Positions 90 to 53,553 of a DNA stretch of 64,000 nucleotides are shown here, piece after piece. The position numbers were made by a program, and so were the translations under genes. Below the pieces are notes generated by a model. It had not been told where the DNA came from, did no database searches, and saw nothing but the letters and a program-made list of their open reading frames with translations. Location of the stretch: NCBI RefSeq assembly GCF_049075655.1, contig NZ_CP157522.1, positions 320,001 through 384,000 on the forward strand, in the 5' to 3' direction. How positions within the stretch are numbered: the first letter of the stretch is position 1; each line of letters begins with the position of its first letter. The DNA comes from Methanothermococcus sp. Ax23. Lineage in GTDB: Archaea > AGJL01 > Methanococci > Methanococcales > Methanococcaceae.

Positions 90-1460
90 TTATTTTTTAA
101 ATTTAAGTGATATGTCAGTTGGGTAGTTGCCTGAAACACATGCAAGGCATAGATTTTTTCTACCTATTGCCTTTATTAAACCTTTAATACTCAAATAACC
201 CAATGAATCGGCATGAATATAATCCCTTATTTCATCAACAGATTTTGAGCTGGCAATTAATTCTTCCTTTGTTGGCATATCTATTCCATAAAAACATGGA
301 GATATTATTTTTGGAGAACCCACTCTTAAATGCACTTCCTTTGCTCCTGCCTTTCTAACCATATCTACGATTCTTCTTGATGTTGTCCCTCTAACGATAC
401 TATCGTCAATTAAGACTACTCTTTTACCTTTTAATATGGTCTTAACAGGATTTAATTTTAATCTAACAGCTAAGTTTCTCTCCTCTTGGGAAGGGAGTAT
501 AAATGTTCTTCCTACATACCTGTTCTTTATTAATGCCTCGTAATATGGAATATCCAATTCTTCGGAATATCCTATTGCCGAAGTTATTCCAGAATCGGGA
601 ACTGGCGAGATAATATCCGCATCGCAAGGTTCTTCTTTTGCAAGTATTCTACCAATATTTCGCCTTACATTATATACGCTGATACCGTCAATTACTGAAT
701 CAGGTCTTGCAAAATAGACATATTCAAACATGCATGTTGATGCGTTTTTTAAACAATCATCCTCTGAAACATAATAATTCTCAATACCTTCTTTGTTAAT
801 TACAATGATTTCTCCTGGATTAACATCCCTTATGAGCTCGGCATCAACTACATCTAAGCCACAGCTTTCTGATGAAATATAAAAATTATCTTCATCTTTT
901 CCAATGCACAATGGCTTAAAACCATTTGGGTCTCTAACAGCTATAAGTGTGTTGTTGTATAGTATAATTAAAGAATATGCTCCAATTAACTCTTTTGAAA
1001 CATTTATTATTGACTGGATAATGTCTTCTGTTTTTAGGAGCTCCTTTACAAGCAGGTGTGCTACAACCTCAGAATCTGTTGATGATGTAAATATATGCCC
1101 TTGCTTTTCCAATTCCTCCTTTAAAATATGAGAATTAACAATATCACCGTTGTGAGCTATTGCCAAATTCCCAAGTGAGCTATTTACTATAAACGGCTGG
1201 CAGTTTTCAATTACGGAGCTCCCTGTGGTTGAGTATCTAACATGACCTATTCCAATATGACCTTTAAGGAGCCGGATATTTTCATTATTAAATACCTCGG
1301 GAACCAATCCCAATCCTTTATGGGAGTGTAATTCATGTCCATTGCTTACTACAATTCCTGCTCCTTCCTGCCCTCTATGCTGTAAAGCATAAAGACCATA
1401 GTATATCTTTCTTGCAACATCTTTATCTGAAAAAGAATATATTCCGAATATTCCGCACAT
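90..1460 (-). CDS. purF: Amidophosphoribosyltransferase
   Basis: N-terminal MCGIFG, QHRGQE, GHVRYST, PRPP motif [13 protein letters not shown]. Confidence 0.97.
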
Positions 1461-1639
1461 TTTATCACAGTTTAAATATGTTATAGAAAATATGATATAT
1501 GTTAAATATTAATGAGATATAAATAAAATTAATATTATTAGTTTAATAATCTAATATTTAAAGATTAACTGTAAAAATGTATTTAAAATAAAGTATAAAA
1601 AATAATAAAATAATTTTAATTAATGATTTTTTATATTTT

Positions 1640-3583
1640 TTATCGAGCTCCTGCACCTCCACCTCCAAATCCACCACCTGCACCAAATCCACCACCCATT
1701 CCCGGAGTTCCGCTGGTGGGTTTTATGGTGGCAATATATGCAGTATTTACTGAGGAATGCATGGAGCCGAAGGAATAGTATATTAGAGGATAGTAATTTA
1801 TCATCTCCCGCGTATTTTCAGGTAATTTAACATCTAATGATTTCAATGCCTTTTCAACATTCCTTCCAACACCAAGGGCAGTTCCATATATCAACCATTC
1901 TTTCCACATCAATATATCCTGAGGAGCGTATTTTTTTATCATGGCAATATCTGATAGAAACTTTTTAAATGATTCCCATTCAAGTTTTTCTTTATAATAA
2001 TCCTTTTTCCATTTACCAAATAGAGTTTTAGGGGCTATAATCAATACAACGCACTGCATAATCCACGCAATTGATAGATAGAATATGTGTGCAGTATCTG
2101 GATACAGGATTTTATAGTCTCCTGAGGATAATATGTAAGATACTACTGCAACAATCACCGAACAGGCAAGCAAAGCCCATATTATTATATTTCCCGTATT
2201 GTCCATATATTCATTAACAGAATACGATGATACAGGTGAGCTCATAATACCATTAACTTCATCCCATAGTCGCTGAGCTCCTATTCTGTTTTTGTTATAC
2301 TTATGTTCTGATGCTATTGCCTCAATTGTTGAAGGTTTAAATATGTTATTTTTCGAGTATCTTATTAAGAAAGCCATAATCTTTTTTTCGTAGTTATCTA
2401 AATTGGATAAATCCTTGCTGTGTATCTCTATACTAACATCATCGGTTGATTCCCCTGGCGATATTTTGATATATTTTTTATCATGAAGGTCTAAAAGTGT
2501 GGCATAAAATCCCTCCTTCCCAAACTCACCCACCTTTCCATTGAATATTAAATTAACAACCCAGGGTTTTCTATTTTTGTTTGGAACATAGCTTAGATAT
2601 TCGGGGACAATGTATTTCTTTTCTGCACCATATTTCTTATAAAGAATATATGCCATTAATGGAAAGATTACAACCATTATGGAAAACAGATATTTGATTA
2701 TGGATAATACCCTGTTTATTAAGAAATATCTATTATTTGCAGATAGGGTCTTTTCCTTAACATTATCTACATAATTGTAATACCCTACAACAGATTCTGG
2801 TTTTAAAAGCATCTCTAATTCAATTAATCCGTTTTCTGGACTATGGCCTGTGATTATATACTCATCACCTGTTTTTGATACCTTAAAACCCACTGGATGC
2901 ACAAATAGATTTAAAATATTATCATTTTTATCTACAACATGGATATTTACTTTTTTATATGGGAAATGCTCATCTGCAAGTTTTAGATTTAAATGGGATA
3001 CAGTATTATCGTATTCTATCGGAGGATATATGCTGAATAGATAGGATGTCGAATAATCCCCTGAACTGTATTTGTTCGGATTGTAAAATCCCACTTCATT
3101 TATTACATTGTATTGAACTACTAAGCTTTTTATATCCCTTAAAATCTCGAAGGATTCGGTATCTGCACGTAAAGTTCCATTGTATTCCACCACATAACCC
3201 ACCATATCCCCACTGGACGCGCTTAAATTAAGCAAAGTTATGTGAGGTTGGGAAACTGTTTCACTATAATTTGGATAATTATAATAACTATAATCATGAG
3301 CTCCGATAACCTCAACTTTGGAAATATTGCAACCACAAATTAAAGGCACCTTCCAATCCCTATAAAGCATCCTATATTTTTTATTTTCATATATTTGATA
3401 ATTATAGGTTTCTCTTAGGGATATGTTTTTATCCAATATGAGCTCGGCATTGTAAGAATTTACATCTATTGAACTGAAAGATGAGGAGGGCAGGTATTGA
3501 CTGCCTAAGCTTAAAGCTACCCCCAACATACCAATAACTGCCATTATAATCAATACTATAAACAACTGTTTTTCTTCCCTCAT
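1640..3583 (-). CDS. DUF2207-family membrane protein
   Basis: TM segments, WKEWLIYGTALGV, Gly-rich tail GGGFGGGGAGAR; downstream of lemA as is typical. Confidence 0.8.
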   Translation of the reverse strand: MREEKQLFIVLIIMAVIGMLGVALSLGSQYLPSSSFSSIDVNSYNAELILDKNISLRETYNYQIYENKKYRMLYRDWKVPLICGCNISKVEVIGAHDYSYYNYPNYSETVSQPHITLLNLSASSGDMVGYVVEYNGTLRADTESFEILRDIKSLVVQYNVINEVGFYNPNKYSSGDYSTSYLFSIYPPIEYDNTVSHLNLKLADEHFPYKKVNIHVVDKNDNILNLFVHPVGFKVSKTGDEYIITGHSPENGLIELEMLLKPESVVGYYNYVDNVKEKTLSANNRYFLINRVLSIIKYLFSIMVVIFPLMAYILYKKYGAEKKYIVPEYLSYVPNKNRKPWVVNLIFNGKVGEFGKEGFYATLLDLHDKKYIKISPGESTDDVSIEIHSKDLSNLDNYEKKIMAFLIRYSKNNIFKPSTIEAIASEHKYNKNRIGAQRLWDEVNGIMSSPVSSYSVNEYMDNTGNIIIWALLACSVIVAVVSYILSSGDYKILYPDTAHIFYLSIAWIMQCVVLIIAPKTLFGKWKKDYYKEKLEWESFKKFLSDIAMIKKYAPQDILMWKEWLIYGTALGVGRNVEKALKSLDVKLPENTREMINYYPLIYYSFGSMHSSVNTAYIATIKPTSGTPGMGGGFGAGGGFGGGGAGAR

Positions 3584-42860: not shown

Positions 42861-43228
42861 CTGACCTACTCCAACGAGTGAACTCGTTGGGTTCTCGCTT
42901 ACGGTAGTAAGCGAGCAACGAAATCACGAAGTGATTTCGTCTAATTTTAGCAGGGTTTAACCCTACATGGGTGGCCAAGCCCACTACCCCTATCCCCGTT
43001 TAGGAGATTCAGGGCTACGCTGTATCACTAAGATTACTCTATCAAAACAAACCACGATACCAACCACTACCAGCGGTAGAGTTTTCACTAACCCTACCCA
43101 TTAGAACTTGGACTGGTAGCGTTACTTACTATTAATCTTCTCATATTTATATTTTACTACTTACTAGCCGATATAATGTCCGCCTCTCATCCAACGATTA
43201 AAATCGTTGGCTTTCTCGGCGGTTTATC
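42861..43228 (-). mobile_element. Non-autonomous IS200/IS605 MITE copy A carrying an omegaRNA-like right end
   Basis: Near-identical to 44432-44806. LE hairpin CCAACGAT-TTTA-ATCGTTGG follows a TTAC flank. RE hairpin CCAACGAG-TTCA-CTCGTTGG ends TCAG. Confidence 0.85.
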
Positions 43229-43344
43229 GTAAAATCCCAAAATTCTAAATTTATAAGTAAAATTTTAGCATAAGGTCATGCAATTGGTTTCATTTGTTTC
43301 AAAGTATATCATTTGATAGTATCAAATTAACCAATTGCTTTATA

Positions 43345-43806: not shown

Positions 43807-44412
43807 ATGGAAAATATACTGCCCAACATTGAGGGAAAAACTCCAAAAATAGATAAAAATGTGTTTGTTGATAAAAGTGCAGTAATTATAGGAGATGTTA
43901 TCATAGAAAAAGATGTTTATGTAGGTCCAAACGCTGTTATAAGATGTGATGAACCTCCAACTAAGAACATATTAATAAAGGAAGGAGCTAATATTCAAGA
44001 TTTAGTGGTGATACACTGCCTTAGAAACGCACCAATAGTTGTTGGAAGAGAAACTTCAATTGCCCATTCCTCAGTAATTCATGGCCCTGCAAAAATTGGA
44101 GATAATGCATTTATTGGATTTAATTCAGTCATATTTGGAGCTGAAATTGGAAATAATGCCGTAGTAGGGCATAACTCAGTTATAGATGGAGTTGGTGGCA
44201 ATTTAAAAATACCGGATAATAAATGGATCCCTCCAAACACTTCCATATATAAAGACTCAGATGGTGTAATAAGAGCATTTTTGCCCGATGGAACTGTTCT
44301 AACGGATTTTAATAATCTTCCCGATATCCCAGAATGGTACAGGGAAGTTCCCGGGGAGGTTGTGAAAGTAAATAAGGAATTAAATTTAGGATATAAAAAA
44401 TTTATTAAATAA
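43807..44412 (+). CDS. Gamma-class carbonic anhydrase (Cam-like)
   Basis: Hexapeptide repeats, IRCDE, NIQD.VVIH, SIAHSSVIHGP (three His ligands). Confidence 0.88.
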   Translation: MENILPNIEGKTPKIDKNVFVDKSAVIIGDVIIEKDVYVGPNAVIRCDEPPTKNILIKEGANIQDLVVIHCLRNAPIVVGRETSIAHSSVIHGPAKIGDNAFIGFNSVIFGAEIGNNAVVGHNSVIDGVGGNLKIPDNKWIPPNTSIYKDSDGVIRAFLPDGTVLTDFNNLPDIPEWYREVPGEVVKVNKELNLGYKKFIK

Positions 44413-44431
44413 TTTTTAGTTTCAAGTTAAG

Positions 44432-44806
44432 CTGACCTACTCCAACGAGTGAACTCGTTGGGTTCTCGCTTACGGTAGTAAGCGAGCAACGAAATCACGA
44501 AGTGATTTCGTCTAATTTTAGTAGGGTTTAACCCTACAAGGGTGGCCAAGCCCACTACCCCTATCTCCGTTTAGGAGATTCAGGGCTACCTTTTGAACTT
44601 CCAACCACTACCAGCGGTAGAGTTTTCGATAACCCTACCCATAGATACTTGGACTGGTAGCGTTACTTACTACTAATCTTCACATATTTATATTTTACTA
44701 CTTACTAGCCGATATAATGTCCGCCTCTAATCCAATCTCATAAGAGATTTTACAAAACTATGTTTTGTATAACGATTAAAATCGTTGGCTTTCTCGGCGG
44801 TTTATC
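44432..44806 (-). mobile_element. Non-autonomous IS200/IS605 MITE copy B (with 37-bp insert in LE hairpin)
   Basis: Near-identical to 42861-43228, with extra 44735-44771. Confidence 0.85.
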
Positions 44807-44989
44807 GTAAAATGTTTTTAAATAAGCATGTCGAATATATAATGTTATCATATAATCGCAAAAACCTGAGCTCGCACTATGGCAACATAAAAATCAAATG
44901 GATTAGGGATATAGTCTGTATTAATTAATATTACTTTTAATATAATTTATTCAATATATCATCGTTAAATTAACAGGTTTATTTTTTAC

Positions 44990-45289
44990 CGGCCATGTGG
45001 ATTTAACAAAAACCTACGGTTTTTATTACTGTCCTTCGCTATCGCTCGGACATCAGATAAAATTCCTTGGAATTTTATTACGTTCTTCACTACGTTCAGA
45101 AATCTCAAAACCTTCGGATTTTTTCGATTTACTCATTTCACTCATAAATTAGATGAAAACCTTCGGTTTTCATTACTTTCCTAGCTATCGCTCGGAAATG
45201 CTACAAAAACGAGGTTTGTTCAACCACGAGTGGCGAGTGAGCTACAAATTCCAAAGGAATTTGTTCAATTAGTCGTTGGAATAGGTCAG
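44990..45289 (+). repeat. Tandem array of about 50-bp double-hairpin units inside IS605-like ends
   Basis: Units 45003-45053, 45054-45103, 45104-45149, 45150-45199, then inverted units. Preceded by TTAC and ends TCGTTGGAATAGGTCAG. Confidence 0.75.
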
Positions 45290-51785: not shown

Positions 51786-52238
51786 CTACTTTTTATCTTT
51801 ATAGTATAATATTTATTAATTCAAATTAATAAATTTAATATATTAAAAATAATTAAAAAATAAAAAGAATAAATTATTTATTTTTATCTCCGCAGGTGCA
51901 TACAACATTTCCTTTTTTAAGTGGCGTGTGAGTTCCAAATACGATTGGTATTTCCAATTCTTTCATTAACTTCTCAGCTACTTCTTCAAAGTTTATATGC
52001 GGACATTCAGGAACTAAGAATGTGCAGTTTGCTATATGAACAGCTTCCGCACCGCTTGCGTTTTTAAGGAGTTTTACCCTCATTGGAAACCTTCTTCCAG
52101 GGCATCCGCCACATGTTGCAAATGCAACTAATTCAACATCTTTATATCTTTCAAATGTTCCGCTTTTTTCATTTATTGCCTTAAAACATGAAAAACATGC
52201 CTCTTTTCCAGGACATCCCATTTGAACCATTTTTTCAC

Positions 52239-53553
52239 GACTCATTAGGCAGGAAGCCCACGATTTCAATCGTTATACAAAACAATGTTTTGTAAAATCT
52301 CTTACGAGATGGGAGGAATGCCGTTTTTTAGCATACATCATACTTAAAACCACCAAAAACTTTTTATATATTGAATGATATACTCAATAGTATGGTGATA
52401 CCATGCTATTAACACTAAAATCTAAACTAATAACAACACCAGAACAAAAAACCACACTATTAAAAACAATGGAACGATTCAATTCAGCATGCAATTACAT
52501 ATCAAAAATAGCATTCAAAACCAAAACCTTTGGAAAAGTAAAACTACAAAAACTCGTATATTATGATGTAAGAGAAAAATACGGTTTATCATCTCAAATG
52601 GTGGTAAGAGCAATAGGAAAAGTATCAGAAAGTTATAAAACAGATAAAAAAACACTTCATAAATTCAAACCACACGGTGCAATAATATACGATGAAAGAA
52701 TACTAACAATCAAAACACCAGACACAATATCAATACTAACAATAAACGGTAGAATAAAACTACCAATCAAATTTGGAGATTATCTACCATTGGAAAATAA
52801 AAGAGTGAGAGGGCAGGCGGATTTAATCTACAAAAACGGTGAATTTTACCTAATGCTTGTTGTAGATATTCCAGAAGAGCCTCCAAACTCTTCATTTTCT
52901 AATGTGTTAGGTGTTGATTTAGGTATTGTTAATTTAGCAACTACGAGCGATGGAGTAAAATACTCGGGAGAAAAATGCACGAAAGTAAGAAAACGATACG
53001 AGAGATTAAGAGCAGAATTACAAAAGAAGAACACTTGGAGTGCTAAAAGAAAGCTTAAAAAAATAAGTGGTAGAGAAAGACGATTTAAACGGGATATAAA
53101 CCATTGTATTTCTAAACAAATCGTCATAACTGCCAAAGGCACGAACCGAGCGATTGCCTTAGAAGATTTGAAAGGCATTCGAAACGGTGGCACGGTTAAT
53201 AAGGCAGTTAAAAAACTTATTGACAGATGGGCATTCTATGAGTTAGCACAATTTATCCAGTATAAAGCAAAATTATACGGTGTTCCAGTATTCTTTGTTA
53301 ATCCACGATACACGAGCCAAACTTGCAGTAATTGCGGTCATGTGTCTAAAAATAACCGTAAAAGTCAGTCAGTATTCGTTTGTGAAAAATGTGGTTTTTC
53401 AGAGAATGCTGATGTTAATGCCGCTTTGAACATTGCCCACCGAGCAGAACAATACTATTTAGGGCTGTCCTGTCAGCCAGCCTAATGTCCTCCGCCCTAA
53501 TTATTAAGGGAGTTGGAAGGACAAGCCAACGGATTTATCCGTTGGTAGCTGAC
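52239..53553 (+). mobile_element. IS200/IS605-family (IS1341-type, tnpB-only) element 2
   Basis: Inserted 3' of TTCAC without TSD. LE hairpin CCCACGAT..ATCGT[insert]GGG. RE hairpin CCAACGGA-TTTA-TCCGTTGG ends TGAC. Confidence 0.92.
52403..53485 (+). CDS. tnpB: RNA-guided endonuclease TnpB
   Basis: GVDLG, ALEDL, YTSQTCSNCG..CEKCG, NADVNAA. Confidence 0.94.
   Translation: MLLTLKSKLITTPEQKTTLLKTMERFNSACNYISKIAFKTKTFGKVKLQKLVYYDVREKYGLSSQMVVRAIGKVSESYKTDKKTLHKFKPHGAIIYDERILTIKTPDTISILTINGRIKLPIKFGDYLPLENKRVRGQADLIYKNGEFYLMLVVDIPEEPPNSSFSNVLGVDLGIVNLATTSDGVKYSGEKCTKVRKRYERLRAELQKKNTWSAKRKLKKISGRERRFKRDINHCISKQIVITAKGTNRAIALEDLKGIRNGGTVNKAVKKLIDRWAFYELAQFIQYKAKLYGVPVFFVNPRYTSQTCSNCGHVSKNNRKSQSVFVCEKCGFSENADVNAALNIAHRAEQYYLGLSCQPA

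What the first reader, a model, noticed from the sequence alone, without database searches (positions are those of the whole stretch)
44735..44771. Same 37-bp insert at the same hairpin position in two different IS605 left ends; absent from the sibling MITE
Seen: MITE copy B has ATCTCATAAGAGATTTTACAAAACTATGTTTTGTATA inside the LE hairpin, and copy A (about 43190-43210) lacks it exactly. Its reverse complement matches 52274-52310 in the tnpB2 LE at 34/37 nt, with all differences in loops. Both sit immediately after AATCGT in the 3' arm of the subterminal hairpin, with no clear TSD. Inference: this is direct evidence of site-specific, independent insertion of a micro-element into the TnpA recognition hairpin, which probably immobilises the host element.
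Basis: seen in the sequence. Interest (0 to 1): 0.8.

Follow-up and report, generated by a model that had tools for sequence, protein, structure and literature searches.

The report
Optional two-hairpin block in transposon ends
The 37-base block is a regular but optional two-hairpin part of the left end of a family of small single-strand transposons; it comes and goes exactly and does not stop the elements from moving.

Summary
The 37 nt at 44735-44771 are missing exactly from the sibling MITE, and they recur (34/37, differences in loops only) at the same hairpin position in the tnpB element at 52274-52310.

The block is the rule, not the exception. 33 of 46 left ends (LEs) in the genome carry it, always between ATCGT and KGG of the 3' arm of an IS608-type transposase hairpin. 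It never occurs at a right end or anywhere else.

It splits the hairpin into a predicted four-way junction, and the foot still covaries across it.

Otherwise identical copies differ by exactly these 37 nt in at least three sublineages, so gain or loss is exact and recurrent.

"Immobilises the host" is refuted:
- Block-bearing copies at different loci differ by 1 substitution in about 370 nt.
- Sister strains carry block-bearing elements at seven loci where this genome has only an unoccupied TTAC.
- The three autonomous copies found (LE, tnpA, tnpB, in metagenome contigs) all carry it.

Best reading: a native, dispensable accessory LE module, a nested counterpart of the known "second LE hairpin", that is lost exactly and repeatedly. 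The direction of change is not proven. A site-specific micro-element, as with SMR-A repeats in Haloquadratum, remains possible.

The parts
44735..44771 (-). 37-nt two-hairpin module in the LE of MITE copy B. On the element strand it reads TA + TACAAAAC-ATA-GTTTTGTA + AA + ATCTC-TTAT-GAGAT.
44772..44788 (-). Copy B: 5' arm, loop and upper 3' arm of the LE transposase hairpin (CCAACGATTTTAATCGT on the element strand). The remaining foot, TGG, lies across the module at 44732-44734.
44432..44806 (-). MITE/PATE copy B (375 nt, family 1). The LE tip is at 44806, the TTAC target (GTAA on +) at 44807-44810, and the RE end ...GGTCAG at 44432.
42861..43228 (-). MITE/PATE copy A (368 nt, family 1) with no module. 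The uninterrupted LE hairpin is at 43191-43210, the empty site lies between 43193 and 43194 (plus or minus 2 nt), and TTAC is at 43229-43232.
52274..52310 (+). The same 37-nt module (3 loop differences) in the LE of the family-2 tnpB element.
52239..53553 (+). Family-2 TnpB-only IS. The TTCAC target is at 52234-52238 and the LE hairpin at 52257-52273 plus GGG at 52311-52313. tnpB is at 52403-53485, the RE hairpin at 53526-53545, and the RE end ...CTGAC at 53553.
42894..42945 (-). Copy A: a second optional block, a roughly 50-nt two-hairpin module next to the RE hairpin. The same block is in copy B at 44465-44516. It is absent exactly from otherwise identical MITE copies.

Best explanation
The 37 nt are an accessory two-hairpin module of the left end (LE) of an IS608-like (IS200/IS605) transposon group and its gene-less derivatives. 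The module is nested in the 3' arm of the hairpin that the Y1 transposase TnpA binds, 3 bp above the foot.

On the single-stranded top strand the LE then folds as a four-way junction: the outer stem and foot P1, the original hairpin top P2, and the two module hairpins P3 and P4. The foot still closes across the module. This keeps the guide tetranucleotide (AAAG or GAAG) and the bases 3' of the foot in their IS608-like positions, so the end stays usable.

The module is the normal state. It travels with its host, autonomous copies included, and is dispensable. It is removed as an exact unit again and again, most likely by structure-directed slippage or template jumping across the two folded hairpins between the bordering TT.

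I read it as the positional variant of the known dispensable 'second LE hairpin' of IS608, ISDra2 and IS605. It probably derives from the short two-hairpin palindromic repeats that litter this genome.

Shown: anatomy, counts, exactness, recurrence, and mobility of both forms. Inferred: the four-way fold in vivo, loss as the main direction, the slippage mechanism, the origin, and any regulatory role.
For: IS608-type ends.
- All 38 family-1 LEs follow TTAC and all 8 family-2 LEs follow TCAC. The hairpin foot lies 18 nt inward, preceded by AAAG or GAAG.
- Right ends finish in TCAG (guide GAAC) or TGAC (guide CAAG).
- All four guide/cleavage pairs obey the pairing seen in IS608: TTAC/AAAG and TCAA/GAAT, with A+16:T-3 and A+17:T-4 (passages of PMC5934647 and PMC3201880).

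The module is the majority state and is LE-specific.
- 33 of 46 LEs carry it (30 of 38 in family 1, 3 of 8 in family 2).
- No right end carries it: 45 of 46 have plain hairpins and 1 has a 1-nt deletion.
- No copy lies outside an LE.
- All 36 metagenome contigs with the 24-nt core show the same context.

The foot pairs across the module. Position P1-3 is A-T in 54 and C-G in 9 of 65 LEs. The DNA fold gives the junction at -17.8 kcal/mol, z -5.4.

The change is exact and recurrent.
- 177442 (block-less) vs 1051603: 0 substitutions in 337 nt.
- 363228 = 993415 = 1457011 (block-less, 0 substitutions between them) vs 315098: 2 in 368.
- 948335 vs 524127: 1 in 285.
- The tree of 27 MITEs needs 4 changes of state, and starred branches force 3.
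- No partial module was seen in any LE examined.

The module is not immobilising.
- Block-bearing pairs at different loci differ by 1 in 372 and 1 in 376 nt.
- At 7 loci (11 contigs with flanks 99% identical or more) a sister strain has a block-bearing element where this genome has a bare TTAC.
- 3 of 3 autonomous copies carry it. These are LE-tnpA-tnpB in contigs L058, L069 and L079, at three different TTAC sites; Y1_Tnp scores E 7e-43.

The module is dispensable: three identical block-less copies sit at three different loci.

Precedents.
- A dispensable second LE hairpin 3' of the main palindrome is described for IS608, ISDra2 and IS605 (PMC5934647, discussion passages).
- A related autonomous IS in another genus has a two-hairpin module 10 nt 3' of its LE hairpin.
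Against: Direction is not resolved.
- On the tree, loss-only needs 4 events and gain-only about 5. The gain-only figure is my own count by eye, so parsimony does not decide.
- The alignment is mosaic, which points to recombination.

No mechanism for exact loss is shown. The bordering repeat is only TT (T in family 2), and slippage would be expected to give some imprecise or one-hairpin deletions. None is seen.

Vertical descent alone does not explain the cross-family pattern.
- The two families' TnpB proteins are only 33% identical and their elements share only about 64-67 nt of DNA similarity. Yet all 13 module stem pairs are the same in 65 LEs.
- The host hairpin shows compensatory changes at 3 of 8 pairs.
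- This calls for strict sequence constraint, recent spread between LEs, or conversion.

LE hairpins of this genome do receive foreign repeats. Two family-2 MITEs carry a 94-nt dispersed multi-hairpin repeat in the hairpin loop.

In Haloquadratum, small repeats target exactly such palindromes (PMC3119063).

The fold was computed at 37 C. The runs that hold this stretch are labelled hydrothermal vent, so the real temperature may be far higher.
Confidence: 0.55

Rival explanations
1. The 37-mer is a site-specific mobile micro-element, a hyperparasite of the transposon. It integrates into, and leaves exactly, the 3' arm of LE hairpins and so spreads between LEs of different IS families, like the SMR-A repeats of Haloquadratum.
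For: - Presence or absence is exact between otherwise identical hosts in at least 3 sublineages.
- The module stems are identical across two IS families with 33% TnpB identity, while the host hairpin has diverged with compensation.
- At an orthologous locus the module loop differs (TAT vs CTT) with no other change in about 85 nt of LE.
- Other hairpin repeats have entered LE hairpins.
- SMR-A is a precedent.
Against: - There is no free or differently placed copy anywhere.
- No right-end hairpin carries it (0 of 46), although some are nearly identical in sequence to module-bearing LE hairpins.
- It has no terminal inverted repeats.
- Its borders do not fit the TnpA guide/cleavage rule (my inspection).
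- No candidate enzyme is present in the genome: no Y1 gene and no HUH gene on the small plasmid.
- All 3 autonomous master copies found carry it.
Confidence: 0.2
2. There was one origin. The patchy distribution and the cross-family identity come from short-patch gene conversion or recombination among the roughly 46 resident LEs. The module has no mobility of its own and is not deleted repeatedly.
For: - The MITE copies are visibly mosaic: hairpin variants, GAGAAAG/GGGAAAG, the 50-nt block and internal variants are reshuffled.
- 177442 could be a 363228-type LE joined to a 1051603-type body, since their first ~130 nt are identical.
- The similarity between the two families is limited to hairpin plus module.
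Against: - 948335 keeps its own hairpin top (ACTTCAGT) and GGGAAAG, which no other block-less copy has. A conversion tract would have to end within 4 nt of the module.
- The same argument holds for 432820, which has the ATGATAGG variant 7 nt downstream.
- Only 35 nt of homology lie between the module and the LE tip.
Confidence: 0.2
3. The block acts as a structured RNA, a regulatory RNA or part of a guide RNA, rather than as DNA.
For: Strong predicted hairpins. The right-end part of these MITEs is abundant in a metatranscriptome.
Against: - No Rfam family matches in the window.
- The block lies upstream of the TATA-like boxes and start codons of tnpA and tnpB.
- RNA contig depth over the LE (80-315) is about ten times lower than over the right-end part (1400-3500), whereas in DNA runs the LE is the deeper of the two. 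These are contigs only, with no strand information.
- No compensatory change occurs in any of 13 stem pairs.
Confidence: 0.04

Closest known systems
Second LE hairpin of IS608 / ISDra2 / IS605 (PMC5934647, PMC3201880; passages read)
   Same: An extra small hairpin structure in the left end only, beside the main transposase-binding palindrome. It is dispensable, is reported to have a minor role in stabilising TnpA binding, and is proposed to be regulatory.
   Different: Here there are two hairpins (37 nt). They are nested inside the 3' arm of the main palindrome, 3 bp above its foot, and do not lie 3' of it. This makes a four-way junction. They are also polymorphic by exact unit gain or loss among copies.
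SMR-A small mobile repeats of Haloquadratum walsbyi (PMC3119063; passages read, supplements not seen)
   Same: Short non-coding repeats that sit within the near-terminal palindromes of IS605-type transposons and PATEs. They make no target duplication and their mobilisation mechanism is unknown. In that genome too the IS200-type transposase is missing or broken.
   Different: SMR-A are about 110 bp with prominent terminal inverted repeats and are read as inactivating their hosts. The 37-mer has no terminal inverted repeat, occurs only at one position of left ends, is the majority state, and its hosts are demonstrably mobile.
IS608 (IS200/IS605 family) ends and PATE/MITE derivatives
   Same: TTAC target with guide AAAG. 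The cleavage site lies 18 nt (IS608: 19) from the LE hairpin foot and 10 nt after the RE hairpin foot. There are similar hairpins at both ends and no target duplication. Gene-less derivatives keep both ends and an omega-RNA-like right part.
   Different: The hairpins here are perfect 8-bp stems without the extrahelical T described for IS608. No tnpA is present in this genome. The LE hairpin is usually split by the module.
Palindromic repetitive elements of Methanocaldococcus jannaschii (MJRE; Suyama, Lathe, Bork 2005, seen only in a reference list, content recalled)
   Same: Short dispersed palindromic repeats in an AT-rich genome, some inside ORFs. This genome holds many two-hairpin modules of the same build as the 37-mer: a long A-rich hairpin with a 3-nt loop, a 2-nt linker, and a second hairpin.
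   Different: No sequence similarity of the 37-mer to any dispersed copy was detected, and it is never found outside an LE. Whether the dispersed repeats here are MJRE was not tested, because the paper is not held.

Membership tests
IS200/IS605 (IS608-type) transposon ends - host elements | Similar subterminal hairpins near both ends, no terminal inverted repeats | tested here: met
   CC[AC]ACGnn-loop-nnCGT[TG]GG at LE and RE of both families.
IS200/IS605 (IS608-type) transposon ends - host elements | Insertion 3' of a fixed tetranucleotide without target duplication | tested here: met
   TTAC before 38 of 38 family-1 LEs and TCAC before 8 of 8 family-2 LEs; unoccupied sites in G000 end in TTAC at the junction. 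Only the LE-side flank was available in those contigs.
IS200/IS605 (IS608-type) transposon ends - host elements | Guide tetranucleotide 5' of each hairpin foot pairs with the cleavage site; cleavage about 19 nt before the LE foot and about 10 nt after the RE foot | tested here: met
   AAAG/TTAC, GAAC/TCAG, GAAG/TCAC and CAAG/TGAC all fit the IS608 pairing (rule). Spacing is 18 nt at LE, and 10 nt (family 1) or 8 nt (family 2) at RE.
IS200/IS605 (IS608-type) transposon ends - host elements | Y1 (HUH) transposase TnpA | tested here: inconclusive
   Absent from G000, which has only a 23-aa remnant. Present next to a module-bearing LE in 3 metagenome contigs of close relatives (Y1_Tnp E 7e-43).
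Second LE hairpin of IS608/ISDra2/IS605 | [quoted passage not shown] | tested here: not met
   Extra hairpins are LE-only (0 of 46 REs). However, they are nested in the 3' arm between ATCGT and KGG, not 3' of the foot.
Second LE hairpin of IS608/ISDra2/IS605 | Dispensable for transposition | tested here: met
   Indirect evidence: three identical block-less copies lie at three loci with different flanks. No assay was done.
SMR-A (Haloquadratum small mobile repeats) | About 110 bp with prominent terminal inverted repeats | tested here: not met
   The block is 37 nt. Its ends, TATAC... and ...GAGAT, are not inverted repeats in any of the three possible placements (sequence).
SMR-A (Haloquadratum small mobile repeats) | Inserted within near-terminal palindromes of IS605-type elements and PATEs, no target duplication | tested here: met
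   all 69 copies lie in the LE palindrome. A 1-2 nt T/TT ambiguity at the borders cannot be told from a tiny duplication.
SMR-A (Haloquadratum small mobile repeats) | Independent mobility: copies gained at existing elements | tested here: inconclusive
   The state changes at least 3-4 times on the MITE tree, but the direction is unresolved. All 3 shared orthologous loci show the same state in both strains.
Dispersed two-hairpin palindromic repeats of this genome (possibly MJRE) | Copies dispersed in intergenic regions and ORFs, related in sequence | tested here: not met
   no copy of the 37-mer, nor of its longer hairpin, lies outside LEs; the short ATCTC-N4-GAGAT hairpin has only two stray matches elsewhere (C1 51447 and 493917). 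The architecture is alike.
Any Rfam RNA family | Match at the gathering score | tested here: not met
   0 matches in the 64-kb window.

The most novel reading that the evidence does not exclude
The 37-mer would be the smallest self-propagating DNA passenger known. It would be a two-hairpin unit that moves between transposon left ends through their folded four-way junction. It would be cut out as a 37-nt dumbbell and put back by a junction- or hairpin-specific activity: the transposase itself, or a Holliday-junction-type resolvase plus ligase. This would explain its identical stems in two IS families that otherwise share almost nothing, and its exact, repeated appearance and disappearance.
Probability: 0.15. 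Interest if true: 0.85.

Novelty: new variant of a known kind. Interest (0 to 1): 0.5.

Why it matters
IS200/IS605 ends are the DNA that TnpA reads, and their right ends supply the guide RNA of TnpB, the ancestor of Cas12. A left end whose recognition hairpin is normally split by a 37-nt side branch, yet stays mobile, shows how much structural load the TnpA hairpin tolerates.

It also moves the known "second LE hairpin" into a new, nested position. The result is a natural pair of otherwise identical ends, with and without the module, on which the role of that accessory structure can be tested.

The exact, repeated gain or loss of two-hairpin blocks (37 nt at the LE, about 50 nt at the RE) is an unexplained process. 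It may be general for the palindromic repeats of these genomes.

Tried and rejected
TnpA cleavage at the module borders. I compared the tetranucleotides 5' of both borders, on both strands and in all possible placements, with the IS608 guide/cleavage rule. No consistent fit was found. This was inspection only, not a tool call.

Cruciform or Holliday-junction resolution as the excision route. On paper, cutting the two strands that enter and leave the module and then ligating would give the block-less hairpin plus a 37-nt dumbbell. Nothing here tests this, so it is kept only as the novel reading.

Reads.
- The only raw-read run (X19) laid 0 reads.
- The other runs are contigs that break in the repeats, so no joint at the 37 nt could be seen either way. 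This says nothing about active excision.

Searches outside the genome.
- The 24-nt core was not found in 40 relatives, in genome contigs or in viral contigs. The window's own records may be left out of those scans.

Relatives as outgroup.
- The family-1 IS has no LE match in the other 22 genomes of the family.
- The G015 and G000 "family-3" copies have unrelated LE hairpins, so they cannot polarise the change.

Parsimony: 4 changes, direction not decidable.

Literature.
- Suyama et al. 2005 is not held. I saw it only in a reference list, and what I say of it is recalled.
- Searches found no paper describing a block nested in an IS200/IS605 LE hairpin. These cover only the held library.
- Supplements (for example Table S9 and Text S1 of PMC3119063) are closed and may hold SMR-A insertion positions relevant to the comparison.

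The small contig C2 encodes a helicase-like ORF and no HUH protein.

Folding at high temperature: the script gave no answer and was not repeated.

Rows dropped.
- 3 of 49 pattern hits (559200, 681337, 1120927) had no TTAC and no hairpin.
- 2 of 40 hits (L053:2565, L073:1848) were likewise spurious, and a third (L053:5895) is cut by the contig end after the first bases of the module, so its state cannot be read.
- 11 of the 38 family-1 elements (10 long, 1 truncated) were left out of the MITE alignment and tree.
- 4 of 69 module copies did not parse.

Full report
OBSERVATION

The 37 nt at window 44735-44771 are as described. Copy A (hairpin at 43191-43210) lacks exactly this stretch. The reverse complement at 52274-52310 differs at 3 positions, all in the two loops. 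No comparable match occurred in 100 shuffles of the window. The borders are ambiguous by 2 nt, because TT on the element strand flanks both sides in family 1 (T in family 2).

WHAT THE HOSTS ARE

The window is G000:C1:320001-384000 of a 1.67-Mb, 32% G+C genome with a 7.7-kb second contig. The runs holding this stretch are labelled hydrothermal vent or subsurface.

The genome holds two groups of elements with IS608-type ends.

Family 1 has 38 left ends:
- 10 long copies, 9 of which align over their whole length with the tnpB-only reference copy;
- 27 gene-less MITE/PATE copies of 283-405 nt;
- 1 truncated copy.
Each begins right after TTAC. Then come 18 nt ending in AAAG, then a perfect 8-bp hairpin CCAACGAY-loop-RTCGTTGG. 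The right end is GAAC + hairpin + AGTAGGTCAG.

Family 2 has 8 left ends, including the tnpB element at 52239-53553. It begins after T(T)CAC with guide GAAG, and its right end is CAAG + hairpin + TAGCTGAC.

IS608 has TTAC/AAAG and TCAA/GAAT, cleaved 19 nt before and 10 nt after the hairpin feet, with guide positions 1 and 2 pairing with target positions 2 and 1 (passages of PMC3201880 and PMC5934647). All four guide/cleavage pairs here fit that rule. The hairpin is therefore a TnpA recognition hairpin by every sequence criterion.

The two families' TnpB proteins are 33% identical over 239 residues. Their DNA shares only the 64-67 nt of hairpin plus block.

HOW COMMON THE BLOCK IS

- 33 of the 46 left ends carry the block: 30 of 38 in family 1 and 3 of 8 in family 2. 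It always lies between ATCGT and KGG and always in one orientation.
- Eight family-1 LEs (C1 8389, 177442, 363228 = copy A, 432820, 948335, 993415, 1418402, 1457011) and three family-2 LEs have the plain hairpin.
- Two family-2 MITEs carry a different, 94-nt multi-hairpin insert in the hairpin loop instead. That insert is related to repeats dispersed elsewhere in the genome.
- No right end carries the block: 45 of 46 have a plain hairpin and 1 has a 1-nt deletion.
- No copy of the 37-mer or of its longer hairpin lies outside an LE.
- The 24-nt core is absent from 40 relatives, from genome contigs and from viral contigs. It occurs in 36 metagenome contigs, all in the same LE context.

Copy B is therefore the ordinary form and copy A the minority form.

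STRUCTURE

Folded as single-stranded DNA, the block-bearing LE gives a four-way junction at -17.8 kcal/mol, z -5.4, with 0 of 200 shuffles as good. The arms are:
- the outer stem CCGCC/GGCGG and the foot P1;
- the old hairpin top P2;
- the two block hairpins P3 (8 bp, 3-nt loop) and P4 (5 bp, 4-nt loop).
The block-less LE gives the simple hairpin at -12.8 kcal/mol.

The foot really pairs across the block. In 65 block-bearing LEs, position P1-3 is A-T in 54 and C-G in 9. P2 has two further positions with compensatory pairs.

By contrast, none of the 13 block stem pairs shows any compensatory change. Among 69 block copies the common variants are confined to the loops. Variable columns are 4 of 7 loop positions against 4 of 30 stem and linker positions, the latter all singletons (Fisher p 0.027).

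The block stems are thus held in sequence, not only in structure, or the block is younger or more homogenised than its hosts.

EXACT, RECURRENT CHANGE

In the alignment of the 27 family-1 MITEs, block-less copies pair with block-bearing ones that are otherwise the same:
- 177442 vs 1051603: 0 substitutions in 337 nt;
- 363228 = 993415 = 1457011 (0 substitutions between them) vs 315098: 2 in 368;
- 948335 vs 524127: 1 in 285.

A maximum-likelihood tree with the block columns removed needs 4 changes of state, and starred branches force 3. Together with the block-less long IS copies (432820, 8389) and family 2, the same exact 37 nt have been gained or lost at least about five times.

No partial block was seen in any LE examined. 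One metagenome copy has a 2-nt deletion.

948335 keeps a hairpin top and a guide-region variant that no other block-less copy has. Simple conversion from another block-less LE is therefore unlikely for it.

A second block behaves the same way. It is a roughly 50-nt two-hairpin module beside the right-end hairpin, at window 42894-42945 and 44465-44516. It is present or absent exactly between copies with 0 substitutions. Relatives of it are dispersed in this and related genomes.

NOT IMMOBILISING

- Block-bearing MITEs at different loci differ by 1 substitution in 372 and 1 in 376 nt.
- Eleven metagenome contigs have LE-side flanks 99-100% identical to G000 and place block-bearing elements at 7 loci where G000 has only the bare TTAC. 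At 3 further loci both have a block-bearing element.
- G000 has no Y1 transposase gene (only a 23-aa remnant). Three metagenome contigs of close relatives do carry the autonomous form: TTAC, LE with the 37-mer, tnpA (Y1_Tnp E 7e-43), then tnpB. They sit at three different sites, one of which is unoccupied in G000 inside this window's contig.

The element that encodes the transposase therefore carries the block in its own left end in 3 of 3 cases.

Block-less elements move too: three identical block-less copies lie at three loci with different flanks.

INTERPRETATION

The block is best read as a native, dispensable accessory module of the left end.

A small second hairpin 3' of the main palindrome is described for the LEs of IS608, ISDra2 and IS605. 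It is dispensable, has a minor role in TnpA binding, and is proposed to be regulatory (PMC5934647 discussion; PMC3201880). A related autonomous IS in another genus of the same family has a two-hairpin module 10 nt 3' of its LE hairpin.

Here the module is nested in the 3' arm instead. The closing foot keeps the guide and the A-T just 3' of the foot in place; these are the positions that form base triplets in IS608.

The module lies upstream of the TATA-like boxes of tnpA and tnpB. It is weakly represented in an RNA library compared with the right-end, omega-RNA-like part (contigs only). I therefore place its action at the DNA level.

Its build matches the many two-hairpin repeats of this genome: a long A-rich hairpin with a 3-nt loop, a 2-nt linker, and a second hairpin with a 4-nt loop. 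The genome has 583 perfect hairpins against 220 in a shuffled control, and 70 adjacent pairs. Homology of the 37-mer to these repeats is not shown.

I favour repeated exact loss, by slippage or template jumping across the folded pair between the TT borders, for four reasons:
- the block is the majority state in every sublineage;
- the block is present in all autonomous copies;
- the block is never found at right ends that have nearly the same hairpin;
- loss needs no dedicated enzyme.

WHAT REMAINS OPEN

- Parsimony does not polarise the changes: 4 losses against about 5 gains by my reading of the tree.
- No mechanism is demonstrated.
- The all-or-none behaviour and the identical stems in two deeply diverged IS families are not what plain vertical descent plus random deletion predicts.
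- Strict sequence constraint (for example a protein reading the palindromes), conversion between LEs, or true site-specific mobility are all compatible with the data.

The last has a published precedent. SMR-A repeats of Haloquadratum insert in the near-terminal palindromes of IS605-type elements and PATEs by an unknown mechanism, in genomes where the IS200-type transposase is missing or broken (PMC3119063). The 37-mer fails SMR-A's defining features of size and terminal inverted repeats, and it does not inactivate its hosts.

VERDICT

- It is a new variant of a known kind: an IS200/IS605 left end with a nested, optional two-hairpin module.
- I found no description of it in four literature searches of the held library.

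Noticed in passing
G000 whole genome; metagenome loci L058:79-640, L069:1-706, L079:1542-3343: The genome has about 46 IS608-type elements, some pairs identical or nearly so, but no Y1 transposase gene. Only a 23-aa TnpA remnant remains at C1:947365-947430. The autonomous LE-tnpA-tnpB form exists in metagenome contigs of close relatives, once at a site that is unoccupied in G000 (C1:326537).
   Followed up: partly
window 42894-42945 and 44465-44516: A roughly 50-nt two-hairpin module lies beside the right-end hairpin: ACGAAATCAC-TTC-GTGATTTCGT, linker TG, CTCGCTTAC-TACC-GTAAGCGAG on the element strand. It is present or absent exactly between MITE copies with 0 substitutions. Related modules are dispersed in this genome and in 7 related genomes.
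   Followed up: partly
G000 C1:1457766-1458160 and C1:1587476-1587970 (loci L013, L014): Two family-2 MITEs carry a 94-nt multi-hairpin repeat inserted in the loop of the LE hairpin. They also carry further hairpin modules near the right end. The insert matches dispersed intergenic repeats at 7 or more other loci.
   Followed up: partly
window 45004-45140: Just beside MITE copy B lies an array of short palindromic modules (for example ACAAAAACC-TAC-GGTTTTTAT, TA, CTGTCC...GGACA). It is almost the same two-hairpin unit that sits 10 nt after the LE hairpin of an autonomous IS in another genus (L084:2010-2060).
   Followed up: partly
window 42862-43023 and 44401-44643: In a vent metatranscriptome (coded run X10) the right-end, omega-RNA-like part of these MITEs has contig word depth 840-3570, against about 130 for the neighbouring gene and 80-315 for the LE. 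This suggests abundant guide-RNA-like transcripts from gene-less copies. These are contigs only, with no strand information, and the depth is the sum of all copies.
   Followed up: no
G000 C1:947050-947100 and C1:130886-130935: Two-hairpin modules also lie inside the tnpB reading frames of a divergent IS copy and of several family-1 copies.
   Followed up: no
G000 C1:946080-947560 vs L079: At orthologous loci (94% identity over tnpB and the right flank), G000 has an LE with an unrelated hairpin (CACCGCTTT...) and a tnpA remnant. The metagenome strain has a family-1-type LE with the 37-mer and an intact tnpA. Left ends seem to be exchanged between IS lineages. The right-end guide there (TAAA) does not fit its cleavage site (TCAT).
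   Followed up: no
window 52239-52269: The listed CGGC-domain ORF (51874-52269, minus strand) starts inside the left end of the family-2 IS. A downstream ATG at about 52248 also overlaps the conserved LE tip.
   Followed up: no
module loops, 69 copies: Loop variants behave like hot spots. The P4 loop is TTAC or TTAT (38 vs 27 of 65). The P3 loop has six variants linked by single steps. Some loops are reverse complements of each other (P3 ATA/TAT, P2 TTCA/TGAA). Orthologous copies in sister strains differ in loops only. This fits hairpins that are extruded as single strands, but other readings are possible.
   Followed up: partly
G000 C2 (L088): The 7.7-kb second contig looks circular. One helicase-like ORF (weak DEAD/ResIII matches) runs across its ends. 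No HUH or Rep family was detected.
   Followed up: partly
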